Source: Escherichia phage vB_EcoS_HZ_ZJUN2. From it: DNA of 64,000 bases. Location of the stretch: sequence record PP216084, one strand, 5' to 3'. Of this stretch, positions 3,781 to 63,424 are shown piece after piece. How positions within the stretch are numbered: position 1 is the first letter of the stretch; each line of letters begins with the position of its first letter. The position numbers and the translations under genes were made by a program. The notes beneath the pieces are model-generated. The model searched no databases. It was not told the origin of the DNA and worked only from the letters and a program-made list of their open reading frames with translations.

Positions 3781-3950
3781 GGCCGATAGTTTCTTATAGT
3801 TATTATTTTTATAGTGATGATTTCTTATAGTTATTATTATAACGGTGATGATTTCTTATAGTTATTATTATATTGGTGATTATTTTTATAGTTATTATTT
3901 TTATAGTTATTATTTCTCATTAATTTATAATTATATTATATATCATGAAA
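3781..3950. repeat. AT-rich tandem repeat array (unit about 24 bp, gatgatttcttatagttattatt)
   Basis: At least 5 head-to-tail copies visible; the plus-strand ORF 3845-4048 is a translation artefact of this array. Confidence 0.75.
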
Positions 3951-9981: not shown

Positions 9982-10215
9982 TCAGAAAACTCCTTCACAT
10001 GTATTCCCCTCGGTAAAGTAGCTTACTGGAGCCCAGAAAGATCCATAGGCCATGATTGGTGCCACCAGGAACATATCCCCTTTTCTATCAAAAACATTAG
10101 CCTTATATTTCACATGATCTTGTACATAGTAGGCCTCACATTTAATATCTTTAGGCCCAAAAGTAGAGCAAGCCGAAAGAAGTACCACTGCCATAGCTAA
10201 AAATAATTTTTTCAT
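9982..10215 (-). CDS. llp: Lytic-conversion lipoprotein Llp-like, 77 aa precursor
   Basis: Signal peptide with lipobox LLSAC (Cys17), mature 61 aa; divergent from the receptor-binding gene as recalled for T5. Confidence 0.7.
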   Translation of the reverse strand: MKKLFLAMAVVLLSACSTFGPKDIKCEAYYVQDHVKYKANVFDRKGDMFLVAPIMAYGSFWAPVSYFTEGNTCEGVF

Positions 10216-14053: not shown

Positions 14054-14578
14054 TTGGTATCCCATTCCTACATTTTAAAATCCCCTTTACAAATTCGATA
14101 CGATTATGTATACTATATTCATACAGTTGAGGAGAACACTATGGCAAGCAATGTAAAATATAAACGCGATGCTATATCCCTTATGAGAGACGGAATAAAA
14201 AGTCAATATAAAAAAGACTCTCAATGTGCTATCTGCGGTTGTGCTGAAGAATTAGAGCTTCATCATTACCATACGGTGTCTCTACTAGTTAAAAAATTTG
14301 CTAAAGAACTCCAATTGGATTTCACTGACGAAGAAATAGTCCTTTCAAATAGGACGGCATTCTATGATCGATATAGGCATGAGCTAGTAGAAGACACTGT
14401 TACCCTTTGTGTACACCATCACCAATTATTACATAAGGTTTACACAAAAGAACCTCCTTTATTTTCTGCTAATAAGCAAAAAGTGTGGGTTCAAAAGCAG
14501 AAAGACAAATTACAGAATCCTCAAGAAAAGACACAAGTCAAGACTGAAACAAAATCAGGATTCGCAAGGTTCTTATAA
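14054..14578 (+). CDS. HNH homing endonuclease, 174 aa
   Basis: CAICGC...HHYH...CVHHH zinc/HNH motifs; free-standing between terminase and portal. Confidence 0.7.
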   Translation: MVSHSYILKSPLQIRYDYVYYIHTVEENTMASNVKYKRDAISLMRDGIKSQYKKDSQCAICGCAEELELHHYHTVSLLVKKFAKELQLDFTDEEIVLSNRTAFYDRYRHELVEDTVTLCVHHHQLLHKVYTKEPPLFSANKQKVWVQKQKDKLQNPQEKTQVKTETKSGFARFL

Positions 14579-27070: not shown

Positions 27071-27099
27071 GAGGAGGACTTTGAGTCCTCCTTTTCTTT
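27071..27099 (+). terminator. Intrinsic terminator after tape measure gene
   Basis: ggaggac-tttga-gtcctcc then TTTTCTTT. Confidence 0.6.
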
Positions 27100-27118
27100 A
27101 TGGAAAAATAAAAATTTC

Positions 27119-27147
27119 TTGATAAAATTTTCTAATACTATTATAAT
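27119..27147 (+). promoter_or_regulatory. Sigma70-like promoter candidate TTGATA-17-TATAAT
   Basis: Hexamers at 27119-27124 and 27142-27147; upstream of pb9-like gene with AGAGGAGAAAT RBS. Confidence 0.4.
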
Positions 27148-27174
27148 ATTGTTATTAAAGAGGAGAAATTAACT

Positions 27175-45219: not shown

Positions 45220-45326
45220 TCTTTTGAATAGCTTAATAATTAGGTCGGAATTTCCTCTAGCTAGTAAGTATAGCTTTTCATAATCGAAGAATTTAATTTT
45301 TGTTTTCTCCTCGAATTTATGTATAT

Positions 45327-45356
45327 ATTATACTAGATTTCGAGAGAATTTAGCAA
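45327..45356 (-). promoter_or_regulatory. T5-type early promoter (TTGCTA-18-TATAAT on minus strand)
   Basis: Reverse complement gives TTGCTA...TATAAT then conserved leader ATAAATTCGAGGAG. Confidence 0.5.
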
Positions 45357-45427
45357 CTAAAATTTTTATTTTTCTGCTTCGGACTTTCTTATCAATCCGA
45401 AACTTTCTCTCTCAAATTTATGTATAT

Positions 45428-45457
45428 ATTATACATCATTTATGAGCTGTTGCCAAA
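45428..45457 (-). promoter_or_regulatory. T5-type early promoter (TTGGCA-17-TATAAT), overlaps 3' end of helicase gene
   Basis: Reverse complement; followed by leader ATAAATTTGAGAGAG. Confidence 0.45.
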
Positions 45458-46792
45458 TGCAATTTTAGCTAATTGAACTGCTTTCTCCGGAGTCATAGTA
45501 ATAGTTTTCCACCCGTTGTTACGATATACTGCCATACGTCCAGAAGCCTGTCTTAGTCCAGTGCCACCTTTCATAATTAGATCTACAACAATAGGGTCTA
45601 GTTTACCCTCGACAATACGTTGAACACGTCCTGCAAGCTGTTCAATGAGAGATTCATTATTAATGAGACTTCCCATTATTAAACAAGATAACTCATTAAG
45701 AGAAATACCTTCAGAGAAGATACTTTGAGCTGCTGCAAGTACACAAGGTCCACCTTTTGCTATATCTTCCTGAATTTTTAATCGGTCATCTAAGTGGGTT
45801 GCCCCTATAATTTCATATGTTGTAACACCACGCTGTGCAAGAGCTTCTAGTACTGTTTGGATTAACTCTGTTCTGTCACTTACAATGAGTACTTTATGCC
45901 CCATATTCACATATAAATGTGCTAGATTTATAATAGTCTCTCGATATTCAGGATGGTTGTACACATCATTAGCACGTAATGCCCAGGGTACGTTTTGGTT
46001 TCCTGATAACTCAACAGGTACGGAGTACCTATGGATTGTAGGTGCAACAGTATTATTAACCGGTGGGCTAAAGATCTTATATCCAAAGAAATCTTTGAAC
46101 ATAACTTGTAGACCATCTTTACGTTTTAATGTTCCAGATAGTCCAATCTTATAGCGAGCACATGATATTTCTAGGAAGTTAGTGAAAGTTGTGGCCACAC
46201 AATGGTGAACTTCATCAACTATAACAGTACCGAATACTTTAGACAGATTATTCGCATGTTTATTCACTGTTTGAATATTACTGACCACAATTGGTGGATC
46301 AATATTGTATTTCCCAGAACCTATGATACCCGGTTCAAACCCAAACCATTTACGAACTTCTGCCGCCCACATTTCACGAATAGATGTGTTGGTACAAATT
46401 ACCAAAGTTTTCTGGCCAAATTTATACGCAAGTGCAAGGGCTAGGATAGTTTTACCAAATCCAGGCTTACCATTAATAATACAGGTATCATCGCATTCTT
46501 CGTATATTGGAAGCTGATCTTCTTCACGCAGCTTGAACTTAGGTTTTGGTATATCTACCGGAGCTAATGTGCGTTTATCAACTAATTCATATTTTACTCC
46601 TTTAACATCTAGTAAATCCAGACGCGTGATAGGAATCCACTTAATCTCTTTAGCAACAACACCACTATTCTTATACATAATAGGGTATTTACTAGTCATT
46701 GTCTCTATGTGATAAGTGGTTTGCTTACTACAATAATCCCAAAGTTCATCATCGGGCTTGAAATATGCTTTATTAGATATAACAACCTTCAT
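45440..46792 (-). CDS. D10: SF2 DNA helicase (D10-like), 450 aa
   Basis: Walker A GKPGFGKT, DExH box VIVDEVHH, helicase C-terminal motifs. Confidence 0.8.
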   Translation of the reverse strand: MKVVISNKAYFKPDDELWDYCSKQTTYHIETMTSKYPIMYKNSGVVAKEIKWIPITRLDLLDVKGVKYELVDKRTLAPVDIPKPKFKLREEDQLPIYEECDDTCIINGKPGFGKTILALALAYKFGQKTLVICTNTSIREMWAAEVRKWFGFEPGIIGSGKYNIDPPIVVSNIQTVNKHANNLSKVFGTVIVDEVHHCVATTFTNFLEISCARYKIGLSGTLKRKDGLQVMFKDFFGYKIFSPPVNNTVAPTIHRYSVPVELSGNQNVPWALRANDVYNHPEYRETIINLAHLYVNMGHKVLIVSDRTELIQTVLEALAQRGVTTYEIIGATHLDDRLKIQEDIAKGGPCVLAAAQSIFSEGISLNELSCLIMGSLINNESLIEQLAGRVQRIVEGKLDPIVVDLIMKGGTGLRQASGRMAVYRNNGWKTITMTPEKAVQLAKIAFGNSS

Positions 46793-49846: not shown

Positions 49847-49907
49847 ATTTAATCTCCTCTTGGTAAGTAAGTATAACTTCAGTGTTTCTTCTCTAACTTA
49901 CCAATAT

Positions 49908-49937
49908 ATTATACCAAATCTTTAAGCGATTCAGCAA
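49908..49937 (-). promoter_or_regulatory. T5-type early promoter (TTGCTG-18-TATAAT) overlapping primase stop codon
   Basis: Reverse complement; drives DNA polymerase gene. Confidence 0.5.
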
Positions 49938-50799
49938 CTAAAATTTCAATACGTTTTGCTAACATATCAATTTCATCTTTGTTTAAATCACCAGGATCTT
50001 TGCCTTCGGGCAGAAGAAAGTTAGCAACTACAGGTGTTAAACGCGTTTTTGTACGAATTAGCTTGGCCAACGCTTGTGCAGCTTTATTACCCGAAGCATC
50101 ATTATCTAGTAAGATAACAACAACTTTTACACCAGCAATAATATAAGGACTGAACTTATCTGCAATGTTATCTGAAGTGAACTGATGTGTACCAAAGCAG
50201 CAAGAAGCATAGTCTATACCGTTATCCTCTAGGTTCAGCATATCAAAGATACCTTCAACTAGAATAAGAACTGGAGTATTATATCGTACAGGGAAAATCG
50301 GTGGTGAAACTTGTTTTGGTTTTACTAAGTATTTAGGAGGGGCAGAACTGTTTATAGAACGACCCAAAAATAGGATATTGCGTCCAACAGCATCTGTGAT
50401 TGGGAATACAATTCTGCCTTCCCAGTCTGCTTGATGTTGGAAAGCAAAATATTTCTTCAAGGTCTTAGAACTTATACCTCGGAAATCACCTTCGAAAAGG
50501 TAAGCAGATTCAGGAATTGCAAGATTCGTTGATCCATTCCTAATCTCTGAAATCTTTTTACGTACCTGTGATAGTCTTGGAGACTGTCGGTACTGAGTCT
50601 CATTAAAATAATGGTAAATGCTCGGTATACCTTTACCGAAGCCACAACTCAAGCAGTGCATAATACCTGTTTCAGGATCAATACGCAAACTTGGGTGTTT
50701 ATCGTCATGATCTGGATTGAGACAACATATAAGAATATCACCACCTGTATCTTTATACTCAATGCCTTTCAGATCAAGTAGTTCTGTTATTCTACTCAT
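49909..50799 (-). CDS. DNA primase, 296 aa (zinc-binding N-terminus plus TOPRIM)
   Basis: CCLNPDHDDKH...HCLSCG zinc motif; TOPRIM EGIFD and LLDNDASG. Confidence 0.75.
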   Translation of the reverse strand: MSRITELLDLKGIEYKDTGGDILICCLNPDHDDKHPSLRIDPETGIMHCLSCGFGKGIPSIYHYFNETQYRQSPRLSQVRKKISEIRNGSTNLAIPESAYLFEGDFRGISSKTLKKYFAFQHQADWEGRIVFPITDAVGRNILFLGRSINSSAPPKYLVKPKQVSPPIFPVRYNTPVLILVEGIFDMLNLEDNGIDYASCCFGTHQFTSDNIADKFSPYIIAGVKVVVILLDNDASGNKAAQALAKLIRTKTRLTPVVANFLLPEGKDPGDLNKDEIDMLAKRIEILVAESLKDLV

Positions 50800-54423: not shown

Positions 54424-54450
54424 ATTTCTTCCTTATCAATTTATATAAAT

Positions 54451-54479
54451 ATTATAGCAAGTATTTAAGCATTTAGCAA
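54451..54479 (-). promoter_or_regulatory. T5-type early promoter (TTGCTA-17-TATAAT) in the ligase spacer
   Basis: Reverse complement; followed by leader ATTTATATAAATTGATAAGGAAG. Confidence 0.5.
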
Positions 54480-54622
54480 CTACAATTTTAATTAACTTTG
54501 CTTACCCTCGCCATAACTTTCTATCCCTCAACTGAATGATAATAGTATATACCTAAGCGGCGAAAATGTCAATAACCACTTTATAATTCCGATATGGTAG
54601 ATGGGTAGCAAAGGGTTATGTA

Positions 54623-55597
54623 TTAATCGTATACTCGCTCTACTATGCACGGGATTACACCACCAGCACGAATCACTCGAATCTGGCAACCGATCTCTAG
54701 ATCGAGAGAGTTAATATAATCAACGTTATTAAGAGTTGCTTTAACAATTGTAGCATCATCAATAATTACCGGTTCGAAATAACCAACTGGAGTTACTTTA
54801 CCAGAAGCCCCTACCTGCCATTCAACTTTAGTAAGAGTTGTAATCTCGCCTTCTTCATCCTCTTTAATGGCGAAGGCTCCACGAGGGAATTTATTAGTCC
54901 AGCCTTCACGGAAGAATTTGTTGTTGTCATTAATACGAACAACTTTACCGTCCGTCGGAATCCATTTAAAGAAGGAACGCACATTAACAACTGTTAAGAA
55001 GTTCTCATTCTCTAGCCAAAGCATATCTTTTAAGTATGCTTCTGTAATACCTACAGATTCAGCAGAACATTGGATACCATAAGCAACAAAGATTAAACCG
55101 CCTTCTCCAATGCGTTGTACGAAAGCATCACTATCTTTGAGGTTAATAGCACCAGAGGCAAAGTTACGTTTATTTTCTACTTCTTTTGTAATTAGAACTT
55201 CACCAGTGATTTGAGTAGGTACTTTTTGGGAAATCTTTTTAGGAATATTCAGCAATCTTACGTTGCTTGTGACATCATTCCCCAGAATACCATTACCACG
55301 AGTTAATGCTTGAACAAATTCACCGTTAATATATAATAGAGAAATTGCACAACCATCTAACTTATCAGTTTCTACCTGACCTAAAGGATTAAATGGTGGT
55401 TTATCCCCACGATTATAATAAACTTTCTGTAAAGAATACATACGGTACAGATGTGGAATATCTCCCTTAGGCCCGATCTCTTCTTCTAGTGGGAAGCGTT
55501 TTACCAGGCAATCATACTCCTCATCAGAGATTAAAGACATGCCTTGATAATATGCTTCTTGACAACGCTTAATAAAGCCTCTTACATTATTCATCAT
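54623..55597 (-). CDS. ligA: NAD-dependent DNA ligase, N-terminal adenylation and OB half, 324 aa
   Basis: Adenylation motif KLDG (TDKLDGCAIS), NAD-ligase domain order; separate ORF from the C-terminal half. Confidence 0.8.
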   Translation of the reverse strand: MMNNVRGFIKRCQEAYYQGMSLISDEEYDCLVKRFPLEEEIGPKGDIPHLYRMYSLQKVYYNRGDKPPFNPLGQVETDKLDGCAISLLYINGEFVQALTRGNGILGNDVTSNVRLLNIPKKISQKVPTQITGEVLITKEVENKRNFASGAINLKDSDAFVQRIGEGGLIFVAYGIQCSAESVGITEAYLKDMLWLENENFLTVVNVRSFFKWIPTDGKVVRINDNNKFFREGWTNKFPRGAFAIKEDEEGEITTLTKVEWQVGASGKVTPVGYFEPVIIDDATIVKATLNNVDYINSLDLEIGCQIRVIRAGGVIPCIVERVYD

Positions 55598-55787
55598 CGG
55601 CGATTTCCATCTTGAGTTCTTTATTATATTGTGTAACCATGTCCATCAAATCAGCAGATTCTTTCAGAAACGCATCTTTGTACACCTTTTGATTTACTGT
55701 GCCTATGCTATCTTGATAATTAATACGTGCTGTGGAAAGTAGATTAAGTTTTGCTTGAATCTTGGGAAGTGTTACTGTCATTGCCAT
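55587..55787 (-). CDS. Hypothetical protein, 66 aa
   Basis: ORF in track, start overlapping ligase gene. Confidence 0.4.
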   Translation of the reverse strand: MAMTVTLPKIQAKLNLLSTARINYQDSIGTVNQKVYKDAFLKESADLMDMVTQYNKELKMEIADDE

Positions 55788-56060
55788 TCACCGTACCTCA
55801 TATGCTTTAGGCTGTCTAGTGGATCCGTGCCATGTATAATTTTTGCAAAGATGCAAATATGTAGTTTTTACTAGCCTATCCGATAATGGAGAGTATATTT
55901 CAGCTATTAATACTTCTTTTTCGTAATAAAGTGAAATCAGTTTATACCCAGTTCTAGTTTTAGTATACTTTTCCCCATTAATCTTTTCCTCCCACATGAG
56001 TATGAGAGGCTGTCCGATATATGGAAAAGGTTTAAGTGTACTTATATTTATCTTTTTCAC
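55788..56060 (-). CDS. Hypothetical protein, 90 aa
   Basis: GTG start; downstream of promoter 56091-56119. Confidence 0.45.
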   Translation of the reverse strand: MKKINISTLKPFPYIGQPLILMWEEKINGEKYTKTRTGYKLISLYYEKEVLIAEIYSPLSDRLVKTTYLHLCKNYTWHGSTRQPKAYEVR

Positions 56061-56090
56061 TTTGCAACCCTCTCATTAATTTATATAAAT

Positions 56091-56119
56091 ATTATATAAC
56101 AAAACTGAGTTGAAAGCAA
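56091..56119 (-). promoter_or_regulatory. T5-type early promoter (TTGCTT-17-TATAAT)
   Basis: Reverse complement; conserved leader ATTTATATAAATTAATGAGAGGG. Confidence 0.5.
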
Positions 56120-56125
56120 ATACAT

Positions 56126-56437
56126 TTATTCTTTTTCCGCCAGGCGTTTAGCTTCTTTTTCTACTTCTAATAAAACCTCACTATTAGATAATATTTTAGT
56201 AAATGCCTTAAATAAATGAGATGTTGTTTCTAGAGTGTATGGCATACTGAATCCACTTTTTGTTGGAAACCATTCACCTTCTATATCTTGGAGCCAGTAC
56301 CTAATTCCTAAGTATAGATTCCCCCTAAACTCAGATACAGTTAGCCTAACCTGTTGGCCATCTTCTCTCTCCCAGATAACTATGGACTGATCATCTACAT
56401 GTCCAACATAATCCTGATTTACATTATCTCCTGACAT
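56126..56437 (-). CDS. PC4/Sub1-like ssDNA-binding protein, 103 aa
   Basis: VSEFRGNLYLGIRYW...GEWFPTKSGFSM resembles the PC4 core VxxFRGKxYxDIREYW...PGKKGISL. Confidence 0.55.
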   Translation of the reverse strand: MSGDNVNQDYVGHVDDQSIVIWEREDGQQVRLTVSEFRGNLYLGIRYWLQDIEGEWFPTKSGFSMPYTLETTSHLFKAFTKILSNSEVLLEVEKEAKRLAEKE

Positions 56438-57084
56438 TTTATTGCTCCCTGACTTAGGAGATATTCCTCTGCCTCCTCTGGTTGAATACTGAAAAACTCA
56501 GTAGAACCGTCAAATATTGACTCTGTAAATATCTGCATACTAGAAAAGAATTGATGGGCTTTATTTTCTAGGGTATATGCAGAGCCTTCATAAGAGTATA
56601 CCCCATATATACTCAGATCCACCAAATTAGAATCTTTTTTAATCTCTTGAAGTCTTCTATCTGGGTTTTTAGATGTTCCTATTTTTGTTCCTAGCTGCGG
56701 GCTATAAAATAGATACAAATAGCTTGTAGCCGCACAGATAGGGCAAGATCTTCTAGCATTTTTAATCTTATCCACGCTGCTAACCCATCTATGTCCTTCT
56801 ACACACTCGAACTCTGCTTGACTACGGGAATTAATATAGGGAGATATAAGTTTTATACCCCTACTGGCTAGCTGTTGGTTTATTTGCTCTACAGTAAGCT
56901 TAGCTTTATTACTACAATGTGGGCAACCACTACCCTTTCTTATATTATTTAGGTAAGCTTTCCATTGGTGGCCCTTTAAGCATTTAAACATGGCTGGTGT
57001 TCTTATGTTAACCCATTCACTTACTATACTAAAGCCTCGTGACTCTAATTCTTTATTTATTTGTTTTGCTGTTAACTTTTTCAC
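56419..57084 (-). CDS. Zinc-ribbon repeat protein with C-terminal GIY-YIG-like (T5orf172-type) domain, 221 aa
   Basis: Two repeats of CxxGHxW...CPxC; C-terminal SYLYLFYSPQLGTKIGTSKNPDRRLQE resembles GIY-YIG core. Confidence 0.45.
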   Translation of the reverse strand: MKKLTAKQINKELESRGFSIVSEWVNIRTPAMFKCLKGHQWKAYLNNIRKGSGCPHCSNKAKLTVEQINQQLASRGIKLISPYINSRSQAEFECVEGHRWVSSVDKIKNARRSCPICAATSYLYLFYSPQLGTKIGTSKNPDRRLQEIKKDSNLVDLSIYGVYSYEGSAYTLENKAHQFFSSMQIFTESIFDGSTEFFSIQPEEAEEYLLSQGAIKCQEIM

Positions 57085-57131
57085 TATACTTTATATACAA
57101 CAAAGGAGAGCCGAAGCTCTCCTTTTCTTTA

Positions 57132-57422
57132 CTATTTTTTACCTACTGGCGTAGCTCTATCAAGTTCACTAGACAATGAAGTGATACGTTTTACCTTATT
57201 TACCGGGATGAATCGGAAGCTATCATTAGTACGGCTAAATACTAGAATCTCGTCGTCTTTTGGTTGGCGAATACGCTCCTGGGCGAATCGTTTACTGAGA
57301 TACTTATCAGAAAAGTCCATAGTACCTTGAAGATACGTAGTACCTTTTTGACGTAATTTCTCATAATGAAGGTAGAACTCGTTATGAGCTTCACATGCGG
57401 AGATGATTTCTTGTTTATTCAT
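57132..57422 (-). CDS. Hypothetical protein, 96 aa
   Basis: ORF in track; hairpin 57103-57126 downstream. Confidence 0.45.
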   Translation of the reverse strand: MNKQEIISACEAHNEFYLHYEKLRQKGTTYLQGTMDFSDKYLSKRFAQERIRQPKDDEILVFSRTNDSFRFIPVNKVKRITSLSSELDRATPVGKK

Positions 57423-57848: not shown

Positions 57849-57904
57849 ATTTTATATTTCCTTAATTAAGAATTAAACAGAATAGTTCTTTCAAACTATG
57901 AGAA

Positions 57905-57933
57905 TATTATATCAAGAATTATAGGATTAAGCA
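57905..57933 (-). promoter_or_regulatory. T5-type early promoter (TTGCTT-17-TATAAT)
   Basis: Reverse complement; drives 57438-57848. Confidence 0.5.
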
Positions 57934-57951
57934 ACTGAAATTTTTCTGTAG

Positions 57952-58227
57952 TTACTCCACCAGGCCAACAGCGAGCATATCATCAATGCTGGCAATCTCC
58001 CAATCGTCGGCAATAGCTTCGCATACTGTTAACGTAACAACCTCACTATAGGGATAATTACCAGCTACCCAGGTATGCTGGGTAACTACATCCAAATCAG
58101 TATCCAAAGTTAATAATACTAAACCGTTATTATCGTTATTCCAACTTTTACGATATAAGGTTTTTGTTTCACCATCTTTCAGTAAATCTGTTAGTTTACT
58201 CACGGCGTTTTCCTTTTTCTTTATCAA
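57952..58227 (-). CDS. Hypothetical protein, 91 aa
   Basis: ORF in track; overlaps upstream gene end. Confidence 0.45.
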   Translation of the reverse strand: MIKKKENAVSKLTDLLKDGETKTLYRKSWNNDNNGLVLLTLDTDLDVVTQHTWVAGNYPYSEVVTLTVCEAIADDWEIASIDDMLAVGLVE

Positions 58228-58900
58228 GTTTCAGGGCAGCCTTAACAGCTTCGTTAATCAACGTAATAATTTCTTCACGAGTCCATTTATATCCCAGAGA
58301 CTTTACGTCAACCCCTAACTTTTCCAGATGTTTAACAGAAGCCAGCTCGTAATTCATATAATGGACGTTCTGTTGTTTGCCCTCTGATAGAAGCCATACA
58401 CGGTAGCAACCAACAGGATTATCCATTGCTTTTTTGATTTCACCGATACACTGGTATCCAGGAACCCAAACAAGCTCACCAACTGCAAATTCTTCTGCTA
58501 CAGCATCATCAGGAATAATTGGAGGATTCAATGGATCTACAATATCGTTCAAACGAAGTAGAGCACCGTATCGTTCCAGAACAGATTTAACCATTGCTAC
58601 AGAGCGATAATTACGATCGGCAATTTCTTCAAAAGAATCACCAGACAAATACTGCTCAATAACGTTAGCTAACTCAATGCCTTCAATGAGAGTGCCGCGT
58701 TTCTTTTTCTTCATTTCGGCAACTTGAATCTGGCGGTCTTGCCATTCTTCAATCATCCTTTCCATAGTTGGGTTGGACGATACGCCGAGCATTTCACATG
58801 CTGCTTTCTTAGTACCACCGTTCTCCAGATGCTCTATAACCTTTTTAAAGACTTCATCTGGGATTTCATGGATATGTTTCTTTCTACGAGAAACAGCCAT
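58196..58900 (-). CDS. Putative HTH DNA-binding regulator, 234 aa
   Basis: N-terminal HTH-like GTKKAACEMLGVSSNPTMERMIEE; first gene behind the PN25-like promoter. Confidence 0.5.
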   Translation of the reverse strand: MAVSRRKKHIHEIPDEVFKKVIEHLENGGTKKAACEMLGVSSNPTMERMIEEWQDRQIQVAEMKKKKRGTLIEGIELANVIEQYLSGDSFEEIADRNYRSVAMVKSVLERYGALLRLNDIVDPLNPPIIPDDAVAEEFAVGELVWVPGYQCIGEIKKAMDNPVGCYRVWLLSEGKQQNVHYMNYELASVKHLEKLGVDVKSLGYKWTREEIITLINEAVKAALKLDKEKGKRRE

Positions 58901-58931
58901 ATTTAAACTCCTCTCTCAAATTTATGAATCT

Positions 58932-58960
58932 ATTATACAGAAATTTTTTGCACTATGCAA
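58932..58960 (-). promoter_or_regulatory. Strong T5 early promoter, near-identical to PN25 core and leader
   Basis: Reverse complement reads AAATTTATTTGCAT...TTTCTGTATAATAGATTCATAAATTTGAGAGAGGAGTTT, matching my recollection of PN25. Confidence 0.7.
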
Positions 58961-58968
58961 ATAAATTT

Positions 58969-59211
58969 TTACGATTCCTTGAGCAAAGAAGCAAGTTCAG
59001 CATAGACTTTATCTAACTCAAAGCCGATGCGAAGAGACACGTTTGTTTTCCGTTGTTTAAGTAACCACTCGGATATGTTAGGGATGCCAGCTAGTCTAGC
59101 AGGAACCACCCTACATAGCTTTTCCGAAGTATCATAAACAGGAACTTTACGTTCTTTTACTGGAAACTTCCTTGTTTCCCATTTTTTATTATTCACTGTC
59201 ATTTCTAGCAC
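58969..59211 (-). CDS. Hypothetical basic protein, 80 aa
   Basis: ORF in track; overlaps the end of the 928 aa gene. Confidence 0.4.
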   Translation of the reverse strand: MLEMTVNNKKWETRKFPVKERKVPVYDTSEKLCRVVPARLAGIPNISEWLLKQRKTNVSLRIGFELDKVYAELASLLKES

Positions 59212-61975: not shown

Positions 61976-62483
61976 AACAATACTCCTGTGTTGGTTAATC
62001 GAAAATCTTTTCTTTAGGACTATTCAGAAAGAATAGAACAACTATTACTACTATTTACGTAAACATCAATTATCATCAAGCAATATGAATAAGTTATCAT
62101 ATCTCAGTGCTGTGCTCTCTTCGCTCATATACAGAATAGAACCTAGGTCATTGGCCGCTAAGCCGATTCTATTTGTCCTCACTATCCTATTGGTAGGTGA
62201 CTACTGTACGTGCCGCCATTCGCTGCTCTTTTCGTTCGCACCCCCATATAAAGCTCTGCCTATATAACGAGCTAAATATGCACGGTTTGGATTTACCTTT
62301 CCGAATTCAGGGTACACAGATCACTTAATTGAAGATTAACTAATGCAATATAAACACTAGTAATAGTTAAAACAACCCTTAATGGGGCAGCCTAACTGTT
62401 CCGTATCGCGGATTGTAAACAAGAAAAATTAGCAAAATCAATTTTTACTAATGTCTCTCAATTCAATATAAATATTATATCAA

Positions 62484-62512
62484 GATTTTGGGCATCATGC
62501 AAGTAAATTTTT
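62484..62512 (-). promoter_or_regulatory. T5-type early promoter (TTGCAT-17-TATAAT) with AT-rich UP region
   Basis: Reverse complement; fires into a ~500 nt region without a long ORF before the 928 aa gene. Confidence 0.55.
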
Positions 62513-62593
62513 CCCAAAGGTGCTATCAGTGTCTTTGAGCATAGAGAAAACCGAGCCAAAATGACTCGGTAATCAGAGTTCAGCTAATAAAAA

Positions 62594-62995: not shown

Positions 62996-63424
62996 TTAAG
63001 CAGTTAAACCTGGGATCATATACCCGAAACGTCGAAGTTTCTGAATCCCCTCATTTACTTCTTCCGGTGAGTAAGACCAACCATAACGTTCATTAACTTG
63101 AAAACCAGGAGATTCACTAGTTTTATAGTTAACAACGAGGCGATGCTTAGCAGGCATAAACAGCTTATAGTTTAACGCAAAAACTAAGCCCATTTCATCT
63201 AACTCTTTCCAGCCGACAATCTCTTCAAGACCATCCTCTACCTGAACAATTAAACCAATACAGGGAGCCTCATCAATATCATCTTTAAAGGCAAAGGAGA
63301 TTTCGTTATTCTCACACCATATTTTCAAAGAGTTAATAGCCTCATTATACAGGCTAGCCGGGAGAGTACGCCAAAAGTTAACCAAAATTGGGTTAGCTTC
63401 TTTAGAGAATACATTATTGAACAT
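62996..63424 (-). CDS. Hypothetical protein, 142 aa, paralog of 62594-62986
   Basis: Same motif set and spacing as the neighbour; tandem arrangement with 9 nt gap. Confidence 0.55.
   Translation of the reverse strand: MFNNVFSKEANPILVNFWRTLPASLYNEAINSLKIWCENNEISFAFKDDIDEAPCIGLIVQVEDGLEEIVGWKELDEMGLVFALNYKLFMPAKHRLVVNYKTSESPGFQVNERYGWSYSPEEVNEGIQKLRRFGYMIPGLTA

What the first reader, a model, noticed from the sequence alone, without database searches (positions are those of the whole stretch)
58905..58975. PN25-like promoter and a family of at least nine T5-type early promoters with a conserved leader
The minus-strand promoter at 58932-58960 and its leader match the classical T5 PN25 promoter almost base for base as I recall it. 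Similar TTGCWW-17/18-TATAAT cores followed by ATAAATTTGAGAGAG-type leaders occur at 45327, 45428, 49908, 54451, 56091, 57905 and 62484, two of them overlapping the 3' ends of upstream genes. This anchors the identification of the phage type and defines early transcription units.
Basis: partly seen in the sequence, partly recalled or inferred. Interest (0 to 1): 0.4.

Follow-up and report, generated by a model that had tools for sequence, protein, structure and literature searches.

The report
Phage T5 early promoters, PN25 included

Summary
Confirmed and already known. The window is a T5-like phage (Demerecviridae) and corresponds to T5 57.5-121.2 kb in reverse orientation.

The minus-strand element at 58980-58906 is the orthologue of T5 promoter P-N25, upstream of gene D2:
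- It matches the T5 record at 64/73 positions.
- It is identical from -12 through +20.
- All changes lie in the -35/-10 spacer or upstream, plus one base of the -35 hexamer.

Identities are 70-75 of 75, and 60/60 over the aligned part for PligA. Two more were missed: P-K28b (54592-54518) and the llp promoter (10295-10221).

A model trained only on 12 non-homologous T5 promoters finds 9 sites above 20 bits. None of 200 shuffles reaches that score.

The conserved "leader" is the initial transcribed sequence (+1..+20), known from N25 biochemistry to speed promoter escape. It is conserved on its own, including at five promoters where it cannot be a ribosome-binding site.

Side observation: the 492-nt leader behind the helicase-gene promoter contains a roughly 330-nt covarying structured element with no Rfam match.

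The parts
58906..58980 (-). PN25 orthologue (-55..+20). A-tract 58970-58966; -35 TTGCAT 58960-58955; -10 TATAAT 58937-58932; discriminator 58931-58926; +1 58925; initial transcribed sequence 58925-58906, whose GAGAGAGGAG (58917-58908) is also the Shine-Dalgarno for D2 (ATG 58900).
   Evidence: 64/73 to T5 P-N25; -12..+20 identical. PWM 49.8 bits. ITS block alone 16.6 bits.
57880..57954 (-). PN26 orthologue. -35 TTGCTT 57934-57929; -10 57911-57906; +1 about 57899. 51-nt leader to D3 (57848).
   Evidence: 72/75 to T5 P-N26. PWM 28.6 bits. Leader length.
56065..56139 (-). Orthologue of the unnamed T5 promoter upstream of ligA ('PligA'). -35 TTGCTT 56119-56114; -10 56096-56091; +1 about 56084. Here it is followed by two inserted small ORFs before ligA.
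   Evidence: 60/60 identical over 56129-56070 to T5 65284-65358. PWM 29.7 bits. Insertion shown.
54518..54592 (-). P-K28b orthologue.
   Evidence: 75/75 to T5 P-K28b. Found by the consensus scan. Below 8 bits in the family PWM.
54425..54499 (-). P-K28a orthologue. -35 TTGCTA 54479-54474; -10 54456-54451; +1 about 54444. 21-nt leader to ligB (54423).
   Evidence: 74/75 to T5 P-K28a. PWM 42.2 bits.
49882..49956 (-). Ppol orthologue. -35 TTGCTG 49937-49932; 18-bp spacer; -10 49913-49908, which contains the pri stop codon; +1 about 49901. 55-nt leader to the DNA polymerase gene (49846).
   Evidence: 75/75 to T5 70987-71061. PWM 40.2 bits. T5 Ppol was validated as an early promoter by primer extension in PMC7472727. 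Overlap.
45402..45476 (-). P31A orthologue. -35 TTGGCA 45456-45451; -10 45433-45428; +1 about 45421. The D10 stop codon lies in the spacer. The exact ATAAATTTGAGAGAG box is present, but no gene starts within 200 nt.
   Evidence: 75/75 to T5 P31A. PWM 43.2 bits. ITS 17.7 bits, the highest in the window.
45301..45375 (-). P31B orthologue, in tandem about 100 bp downstream of P31A. -35 TTGCTA 45356-45351; 18-bp spacer; -10 45332-45327; +1 about 45320. 101-nt leader.
   Evidence: 75/75 to T5 P31B. PWM 43.5 bits.
62448..62522 (-). Orthologue of the unnamed T5 promoter 58999-59073 ('Pori'). -35 TTGCAT 62502-62497; -10 62479-62474; +1 about 62467. 492-nt untranslated leader to the origin-binding/helicase gene (61975).
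   Evidence: 70/75. PWM 20.6 bits. Preceded by a terminator-like hairpin at 62570-62550.
25-nt leader to the lipoprotein gene llp (9982..10215).
   Evidence: 68/75 to T5 110349-110423. PWM 47.6 bits, second best in the window. ITS 12.5 bits. The ORF has a lipoprotein signal peptide.

Best explanation
These are strong promoters of the T5 early gene class, read by the host's sigma-70 RNA polymerase. The flagged one is the orthologue of PN25.

Each combines five elements:
- an A-rich, UP-like block around -45;
- a TTGCTT-type -35 hexamer;
- a 17-18-bp spacer whose sequence is free to vary;
- a consensus TATAAT -10 hexamer followed by an AT-rich discriminator;
- a conserved A/T- and purine-rich initial transcribed sequence (ATAAATT.GAGAG...).

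Near-consensus contacts make polymerase binding and opening fast, so promoter escape becomes rate-limiting. The native initial transcribed sequence relieves that limit. At four promoters with 21-25-nt leaders (PN25, PligA, PK28a, Pllp), the purine run of the same box also serves as the Shine-Dalgarno sequence of the first gene.

The promoters lie on DNA that enters the cell only in the second step of T5 DNA transfer. They head the replication and nucleotide-metabolism operons (D2, D3, ligase, D5-primase, polymerase-D10, D11) and llp.

Shown here: sequence identity and synteny with annotated T5 promoters, family-wide conservation well above chance, and cross-genus footprints.

Taken from the literature for T5 itself: recognition by sigma-70 holoenzyme, the escape function of the N25 initial transcribed sequence, and early timing of Ppol.

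Inferred: that the same holds in this phage and for every paralogue.
For: - Orthology: all sites align at 64/73 to 75/75 with promoter features of AY543070, in the same gene order.
- Independent model: 9 sites above 20 bits against 0 in 200 shuffles.
- Leader: the +1..+20 block is conserved on its own.
- Footprint: across Tequintavirus, Epseptimavirus, Sugarlandvirus and Priunavirus, the A-tract, TTTGC and TATAATAG..TCATAAATTTGAGA are invariant. The spacer and the flanking genes differ.
- Distribution: the exact 30-mer from -10 to +18 occurs once per contig in 26 T5-sized viral contigs.
- Not just a ribosome-binding site: five promoters carry the box 51-492 nt from the next start codon.
- Class specificity: pre-early (PH22, P11-like) and late (PG25, PJ5) promoter orthologues in the same window lack the box and score 12 bits or less.
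- Literature, PMC12464699: N25 is TTGctt/17 bp/TATAAT with an UP element and is escape rate-limited. Replacing +3..+20 (antiDSR) lowers full-length RNA about 10-fold and lengthens the escape half-life from 3 to about 45 min.
- Literature, PMC7472727: all three T5 gene classes use sigma-70 holoenzyme, early promoters share an AT-rich discriminator, and Ppol is early in vivo.
Against: - There are no transcript data for this phage. All +1 positions are inferred by homology to T5.
- The escape-promoting role of the initial transcribed sequence has been tested only for N25. Two family members (PN26 at 4.3 bits, Pori at 1.2 bits) match the box weakly.
- The window's PN25 has TTGCAT instead of TTGCTT and six spacer changes, whose effect on strength is unknown.
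- The original papers that mapped these promoters (Gentz and Bujard 1985; Kammerer et al. 1986) were not available in the library. They are cited only through later papers and the GenBank annotation.
Confidence: 0.93

Rival explanations
1. The conserved 'leader' is purely a translation signal (Shine-Dalgarno and translation-initiation region), not a transcription-level element.
For: At PN25, PligA, PK28a and Pllp the purine run lies 7-12 nt before the start codon, and the leaders are only 21-25 nt.
Against: P31A carries the best copy of the box but has no start codon within 200 nt. PN26, Ppol, P31B and Pori have leaders of 51-492 nt, and Ppol has its own AAGAGGAG next to the start codon. The A/T-rich half (ATAAATT, +1..+7) is conserved as strongly as the purine half. 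The N25 antiDSR result was obtained by in-vitro transcription, where translation plays no part.
Confidence: 0.05
2. The discriminator plus the +1..+20 box is a class tag bound by a phage-encoded factor that switches early transcription off (or by gpT5.026 or D5), acting as an operator rather than, or in addition to, an escape element.
For: The box is confined to the early class and absent from pre-early and late promoter orthologues in the same window. PMC7472727 states that the class-switch mechanisms are unknown, that early promoters share an AT-rich discriminator, and that loss of gpT5.026 raises early transcripts about five-fold. The T5 annotation says D5 is involved in early shut-off.
Against: There is no evidence that any protein binds this box. 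gpT5.026 binds polymerase, not DNA, and has only a mild in-vitro effect. The box already has a demonstrated factor-independent function in N25.
Confidence: 0.1
3. The sites are chance matches to the sigma-70 consensus in AT-rich phage DNA.
For: The generic consensus scan finds no more sites than shuffled sequence does (61 against 58.6). The 15-mer with up to 3 mismatches is only mildly enriched (9 against 4.9).
Against: The extended architecture gives 9 sites above 20 bits against 0 in 200 shuffles. All lie on the coding strand of the early genes, at gene boundaries, and are orthologous to annotated T5 promoters.
Confidence: 0.01

Closest known systems
Bacteriophage T5 promoter PN25 (AY543070 63043-63117; the 'T5 promoter' of pDS/pQE-type expression vectors and the N25 template of promoter-escape studies)
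   Same: Same position upstream of D2. Same A-tract, 17-bp spacer length, TATAAT, AGATTC discriminator, +1 and initial transcribed sequence ATAAATTTGAGAGAGGAGTT, with the first C at +30.
   Different: The -35 is TTGCAT instead of TTGCTT, there are six spacer substitutions (TTTCAGGAAAATT becomes ATAGTGCAAAAAA), and two or three changes lie upstream of -45. 24 deposited phage records are at least 99% identical to this 111-nt region; the aligned relative phiLLS carries nearly the same spacer. Relative to AY543070 there is one extra T between the SD and the ATG, which most relatives also have.
T5 early promoter family (consensus TTGCTT-N17-18-TATAATA of Wang et al. 2005, as quoted in the AKFV33 GenBank annotation; named members P-N26, P-K28a/b, P31A/B, P-H207, P-D/E33, P16-17)
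   Same: The window members are orthologues at 93-100% identity. They share the upstream A-block, -35, -10, AT-rich discriminator and +1..+20 homology with the T5 paralogues used for training.
   Different: Nothing of substance. In this phage PligA is separated from ligA by a roughly 475-bp insertion carrying two small ORFs.
Other strong sigma-70 phage promoters (lambda PR, T7 A1)
   Same: Near-consensus -35/-10 with a 17-bp spacer and an UP element. PMC12464699 explicitly compares N25 with lambda PR.
   Different: The T5 early family adds a family-wide conserved initial transcribed sequence and an AT-rich discriminator. N25 is limited at escape rather than at binding or opening.

Membership tests
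T5 PN25 (orthologue) | Sequence match to the published or annotated PN25 over -50..+20 | tested here: met
   64/73 to the AY543070 feature 'promoter P-N 25'. 57/64 to the published T5N25 oligo. -12..+20 identical.
T5 PN25 (orthologue) | Position immediately upstream of gene D2, downstream of the T5.110 homologue | tested here: met
   The ORF 58196..58900 is annotated as D2 in relatives.
T5 PN25 (orthologue) | Transcript starts at the A of CATAAATTT and has no C until +30 | tested here: inconclusive
   The sequence property (first C at +30 counted from 58925) is met. The actual start site in this phage was not measured.
T5 early promoter family | TTGCTT-like -35, 17-18-bp spacer, TATAAT(A) -10 | tested here: met
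   Nine sites. P-K28b has TTGACA/TATACT instead.
T5 early promoter family | A-rich upstream block (about -50 to -40) | tested here: met
   The upstream block scores 3.8-14.0 bits at the nine sites, against a null of -16.7 +/- 7.7.
T5 early promoter family | AT-rich discriminator (ATATT-type; PMC7472727) | tested here: met
   ATATAC, ATATAC, ATATTG, ATTTAT (three times), ATTCTC, AGATTC and AGTATT. It is AT-rich at every site but only loosely matches ATATT.
T5 early promoter family | Homology in the initial transcribed region (+1..+20, 'DSR') | tested here: met
   ITS-only score of 1.2-17.7 bits against a null of -12.7 +/- 7.2. Weakest at Pori and PN26.
T5 early promoter family | Initiation by E. 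coli sigma-70 holoenzyme with early (post second-step-transfer) kinetics | not testable with these tools
   Known for T5 (Ppol in PMC7472727; N25 in PMC12464699). Inferred here from 75/75 and 64/73 identity.

The most novel reading that the evidence does not exclude
The promoter family itself holds nothing new. However, one member (Pori, +1 about 62467) does not lead directly into a gene. It leads into a roughly 330-nt element (about 62372-62036, minus strand) in the 492-nt leader of the origin-binding/helicase gene.

This element has at least four sequence variants, about 60% identical or less, across T5-like phages, and they keep a common fold through many compensatory base changes. It has no Rfam match and is unannotated in nearly all deposited genomes. 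It could be an undescribed structured RNA: a cis-regulatory leader controlling the replication helicase, a stable non-coding RNA, or a transcript that primes or activates a replication origin.
Probability: 0.5. Interest if true: 0.45.

Novelty: already known. Interest (0 to 1): 0.1.

Why it matters
For the finding itself, the value is annotation. It fixes the phage type and the orientation relative to T5, and it lays out the early transcription units of the replication-gene cluster. It also supplies a natural PN25 allele with a changed -35 base and spacer but an unchanged -10, discriminator and initial transcribed sequence.

Cross-genus invariance of the stretch from -12 to about +17, set against a freely varying spacer, is comparative support for the view from N25 biochemistry that the initial transcribed sequence is a functional part of the promoter.

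None of this would surprise a specialist. The only lead with discovery potential is the covarying structured leader behind the Pori promoter.

Tried and rejected
1. The original mapping papers could not be read. PMC1167252 is not held, so PN25 identity rests on the GenBank feature, two later papers that print the sequence and the C30 property.

2. The window's PN25 spacer contains a perfect palindrome, TTTGCA-TAG-TGCAAA (58961-58947), which I considered as a possible operator. I rejected it as probably incidental. The closest variant (phiLLS) has TTCAAA, which breaks it, and T5 and other relatives lack it.

3. The generic sigma-70 scan and the 15-mer mismatch search discriminate poorly on their own. 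An extended weight matrix was needed.

4. Rfam found nothing in 44-64 kb at gathering thresholds, nor in the Pori leader at E <= 1.

5. A literature search for a described RNA or origin in the Pori leader found nothing relevant. One search failed on a term that was too short.

6. For the structured leader, thermodynamic z-scores are mixed. The window sense strand gives -3.8 against -0.9 for antisense, but L067 is near 0 on both strands and phiR2-01 folds well on both. The case therefore rests on covariation.

7. The Priunavirus copy (L069) could not be aligned reliably by MAFFT.

8. I did not build a covariance model. The element (more than 330 columns) would probably exceed the calibration time limit.

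Full report
**What is at the coordinates.**

Read on the minus strand, 58980-58898 is:

AAGGAATCGT AAAAA TTTAT TTGCAT AGTGCAAAAAATTTCTG TATAAT AGATTC ATAAATTTGAGAGAGGAGTTTAAAT ATG

The elements are:
- an A-tract at 58970-58966;
- a -35 hexamer TTGCAT at 58960-58955;
- a 17-bp spacer;
- a consensus -10 at 58937-58932;
- a 6-bp discriminator;
- a purine/AT-rich start that runs into the start codon of a 234-aa ORF (58196..58900).

**Which phage, and what the record says.**

The region is 97-98% identical to many T5-like phages of Salmonella and Escherichia. The downstream gene is annotated as D2.

A blastn map places the window on T5 (AY543070) 57.5-121.2 kb in reverse orientation:
- window 1-9.5 kb is the terminal repeat with pre-early genes;
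- 9.9-40 kb holds the late structural genes;
- 40-64 kb holds the early replication genes.

The T5 record carries 75-bp promoter features (-55..+20), among them 'promoter P-N 25' at 63043-63117, directly upstream of D2.

- The window matches the T5 PN25 feature at 64/73, with every position from -12 to +20 identical.
- Relative to a T5N25 oligonucleotide printed in bioRxiv 10.1101/042432, there are 7 differences in 64 positions. One is at the fifth base of the -35 hexamer (TTGCTT to TTGCAT) and six are in the spacer.
- The only difference between -10 and the ATG relative to AY543070 is one extra T after the Shine-Dalgarno. Most relatives share it.
- That extra T puts the first C of the transcript at +30, as PMC12464699 states for the N25 template.

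The identification as the PN25 orthologue is therefore secure.

**The other sites.**

|---|---|---|
| 62484 (true -10 at 62479-62474) | unnamed, 58999-59073, ahead of the origin-binding helicase gene | 70/75 |
| 57905 | P-N26 | 72/75 |
| 56091 | unnamed, before ligA | 60/60 |
| 54451 | P-K28a | 74/75 |
| 49908 | promoter before pol | 75/75 |
| 45428 | P31A | 75/75 |
| 45327 | P31B | 75/75 |

Two further T5 promoters are present but were not listed:
- P-K28b (54592-54518, 75/75) has a TTGACA/TATACT core.

**Is it more than chance?**

The simple sigma-70 scan is not enriched (61 sites against 58.6 expected).

I therefore trained a two-block weight matrix on 12 annotated T5 promoters from T5 41-56 kb, a region with no homologue in the window. 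The upstream block covers the A-rich region plus the -35. After a 16-18-bp gap, the downstream block runs from the last 5 spacer bases through +20.

Scanning both strands of all 64 kb gave nine sites between 20.6 and 49.8 bits. In 200 dinucleotide-preserving shuffles no site exceeded 20 bits, and the maximum was 19.0.

Orthologues of the late promoters PG25 (12.2 bits) and PJ5, and of the pre-early promoter PH22 (8.7 bits), score far lower and lack the leader box. The architecture is therefore specific to the early class, plus llp. From my own knowledge of the T5 literature, llp is expressed early.

**The 'conserved leader'.**

Scored alone, +1..+20 gives 1.2-17.7 bits at the nine sites. The null over all window positions is -12.7 +/- 7.2, and only one of 93 other TATAAT occurrences exceeds 5 bits. 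The leader homology is therefore real and independent of the core.

It is not simply a ribosome-binding site:
- PN25, PligA, PK28a and Pllp have 21-25-nt leaders, in which the purine run is the Shine-Dalgarno.
- PN26, Ppol, P31B, P31A and Pori have leaders of 51, 55, 101, 202 and 492 nt.
- P31A has the best box in the window and no gene behind it before P31B.

An alignment across four genera was also informative:
- The A-tract, TTTGC and TATAATAG..TCATAAATTTGAGA are invariant.
- The spacer is free to vary.
- In Sugarlandvirus and Priunavirus the flanking genes are unrelated.

The exact 30-mer from -10 to +18 occurs once per contig in 26 T5-sized IMG/VR contigs.

**Mechanism.**

The literature on T5 N25 explains the anatomy. 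PMC12464699 describes N25 as a near-consensus TTGctt/17 bp/TATAAT promoter with an UP element. It is limited at promoter escape. Changing +3..+20 to the 'antiDSR' sequence reduces full-length RNA about ten-fold (Kammerer et al. 1986, as cited there) and lengthens the escape half-life from 3 to about 45 min.

PMC7472727 adds four points:
- All T5 gene classes are transcribed by sigma-70 holoenzyme.
- Early promoters share an AT-rich discriminator.
- Ppol, which is 75/75 identical here, behaves as an early promoter in vivo.
- The class-switch mechanism is unknown.

The best-supported reading is that these are host-polymerase promoters built for very fast recruitment. Their co-evolved initial transcribed sequence keeps escape efficient and, where the leader is short, doubles as the ribosome-binding site. 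Applying this to this phage and to all paralogues is an inference.

**Transcription units.**

The layout below combines the promoters with the terminator-like hairpins on the minus strand (62570-62550, 57125-57102, 52863-52835, 44163-44144) and the T5 gene names:
- Pori leads to the origin-binding helicase and the T5.110 homologue.
- PN25 leads to D2 and the T5.112 homologue.
- PN26 leads to D3 and the T5.114 homologue, then a terminator.
- PligA leads to two inserted ORFs, then ligA.
- PK28b and PK28a lead to ligB and D5, then a terminator-like hairpin, D6, an HNH endonuclease gene and pri.
- Ppol leads to pol, the T5.123 homologue and D10.
- P31A and P31B lead to the T5.125 homologue and D11, then a terminator.

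**Verdict on the finding.**

The feature is already known. The same promoters are annotated in the T5 reference, and the PN25 orthologue is annotated as a promoter in phage AKFV33. Interest is low.

**Side observation: a structured leader.**

The 492-nt leader behind Pori contains a GC-richer core closed by an 18-nt long-range inverted repeat. The whole leader folds better than shuffles (z = -3.15). It has no Rfam match even at E <= 1.

Among T5-like contigs the flanks are conserved, but the core exists in at least two versions of equal length that are only about 60% identical. They share the islands GATCTG.GT.CCC and GGCTTAGCGGCC. No ORF is shared between the versions.

Evidence from consensus folding:
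- RNAalifold on seven sequences gives 101 pairs, 24 of them with changes on both sides, including within-clade events.
- In the control count, 92.8% of cells pair, against 37-47% when partners are slid. There are 24 doubly changed pairs against 2-5 when slid, and 0 of 500 shuffles reach the observed values.
- The caveat is that the structure was derived from the same alignment and that most of the changes separate just two clades.

Adding Epseptimavirus copies and a third variant from Yersinia phage phiR2-01 keeps the main helices, with 28 of 66 pairs compensatory.

More distant relatives show the same arrangement:
- With the helicase 73% identical, the element is detectable by nhmmer (E about 1e-9) and still covaries.
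- With the helicase 55% identical (Priunavirus), a family-type promoter lies about 620 nt upstream and the GCTTAGCGGCG island is present, but the sequence could not be aligned reliably.

Several G-U pairs are invariant, so the fold is specific to the strand transcribed from Pori. The sense strand has the lower free energy in all four variants, although z-scores are uneven.

Type A occurs in 276 deposited phage genomes and is almost never annotated. I found no description of it. Its function is open. It could be a regulatory 5' UTR of the helicase gene, a stable RNA, or a transcript involved in origin activation.

Noticed in passing
window 62036-62372 (minus strand), inside the 492-nt leader 61976-62467: A structured non-coding element of about 330 nt lies between the Pori promoter and the origin-binding/helicase gene. 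At least four sequence variants across T5-like phages keep a common fold (24-28 pairs with compensatory changes, invariant G-U pairs on the transcribed strand). It has no Rfam match and no conserved ORF, and it is unannotated in nearly all of 276 records.
   Followed up: partly
window 55587-56060 (minus strand): Relative to T5, about 475 bp carrying two small ORFs (90 aa with a GTG start, and 66 aa) with no Pfam match is inserted between the PligA promoter and ligA. Identity to T5 stops about 15 nt into the transcript, so the insertion sits just behind the promoter and its initial transcribed box.
   Followed up: partly
window 56419-57084 (minus strand); the unaligned stretch is 56422-57202: A 221-aa ORF, absent from the T5 alignment, has T5orf172/MUG113 (GIY-YIG-like), treble-clef zinc-finger and CapR domains. 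It is probably a homing-endonuclease-type insertion. The neighbouring 103-aa ORF (56126-56437) has a PC4-like single-stranded-DNA-binding domain.
   Followed up: partly
window 58196-58900 (minus strand): D2, the gene driven by PN25, is labelled 'helicase' in many deposited genomes. Pfam gives only a sub-threshold helix-turn-helix match (HTH_28, 22.1 bits against a cutoff of 25), so the helicase label looks unsupported.
   Followed up: partly
window 45376-45403 (minus strand): A 10-bp hairpin (GUUUCGGAUU...AGUCCGAAGC) lies between the tandem promoters P31A and P31B and has no U-tract. The 122-nt P31A-to-P31B transcript folds better than shuffles (z = -3.79). Its role is unknown.
   Followed up: partly
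window 58947-58961 (minus strand): This phage's PN25 allele has a perfect palindrome, TTTGCA-TAG-TGCAAA, spanning the -35 hexamer and the spacer. It is absent from T5 and imperfect in phiLLS, so it is probably incidental.
   Followed up: yes
window 27099-27173 (plus strand): The orthologue of the late promoter P-G25 (74/75) has a leader ATTAAAGAGGAGAAATTAACTATG. As I recall, this is the synthetic-looking ribosome-binding site of pDS/pQE expression vectors. It scores only 12 bits in the early-promoter model.
   Followed up: partly
window 3935-3940 (minus strand) and 14109-14114 (plus strand): Two weaker promoter-like sites are not matched to any annotated T5 promoter. One lies in the terminal repeat (17.3 bits, poor -35 TAGCCA, but a good ATAAATTAATGAGA start). 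The other lies upstream of the T5.154 homologue in the late region (15.1 bits, TTTACA/TATACT).
   Followed up: no
window 62412-62441 (minus strand): A second promoter-like site (TTGATT, 18 bp, TACAAT) lies about 40 nt downstream of the Pori start and just upstream of the structured element. It might give an alternative 5' end.
   Followed up: no
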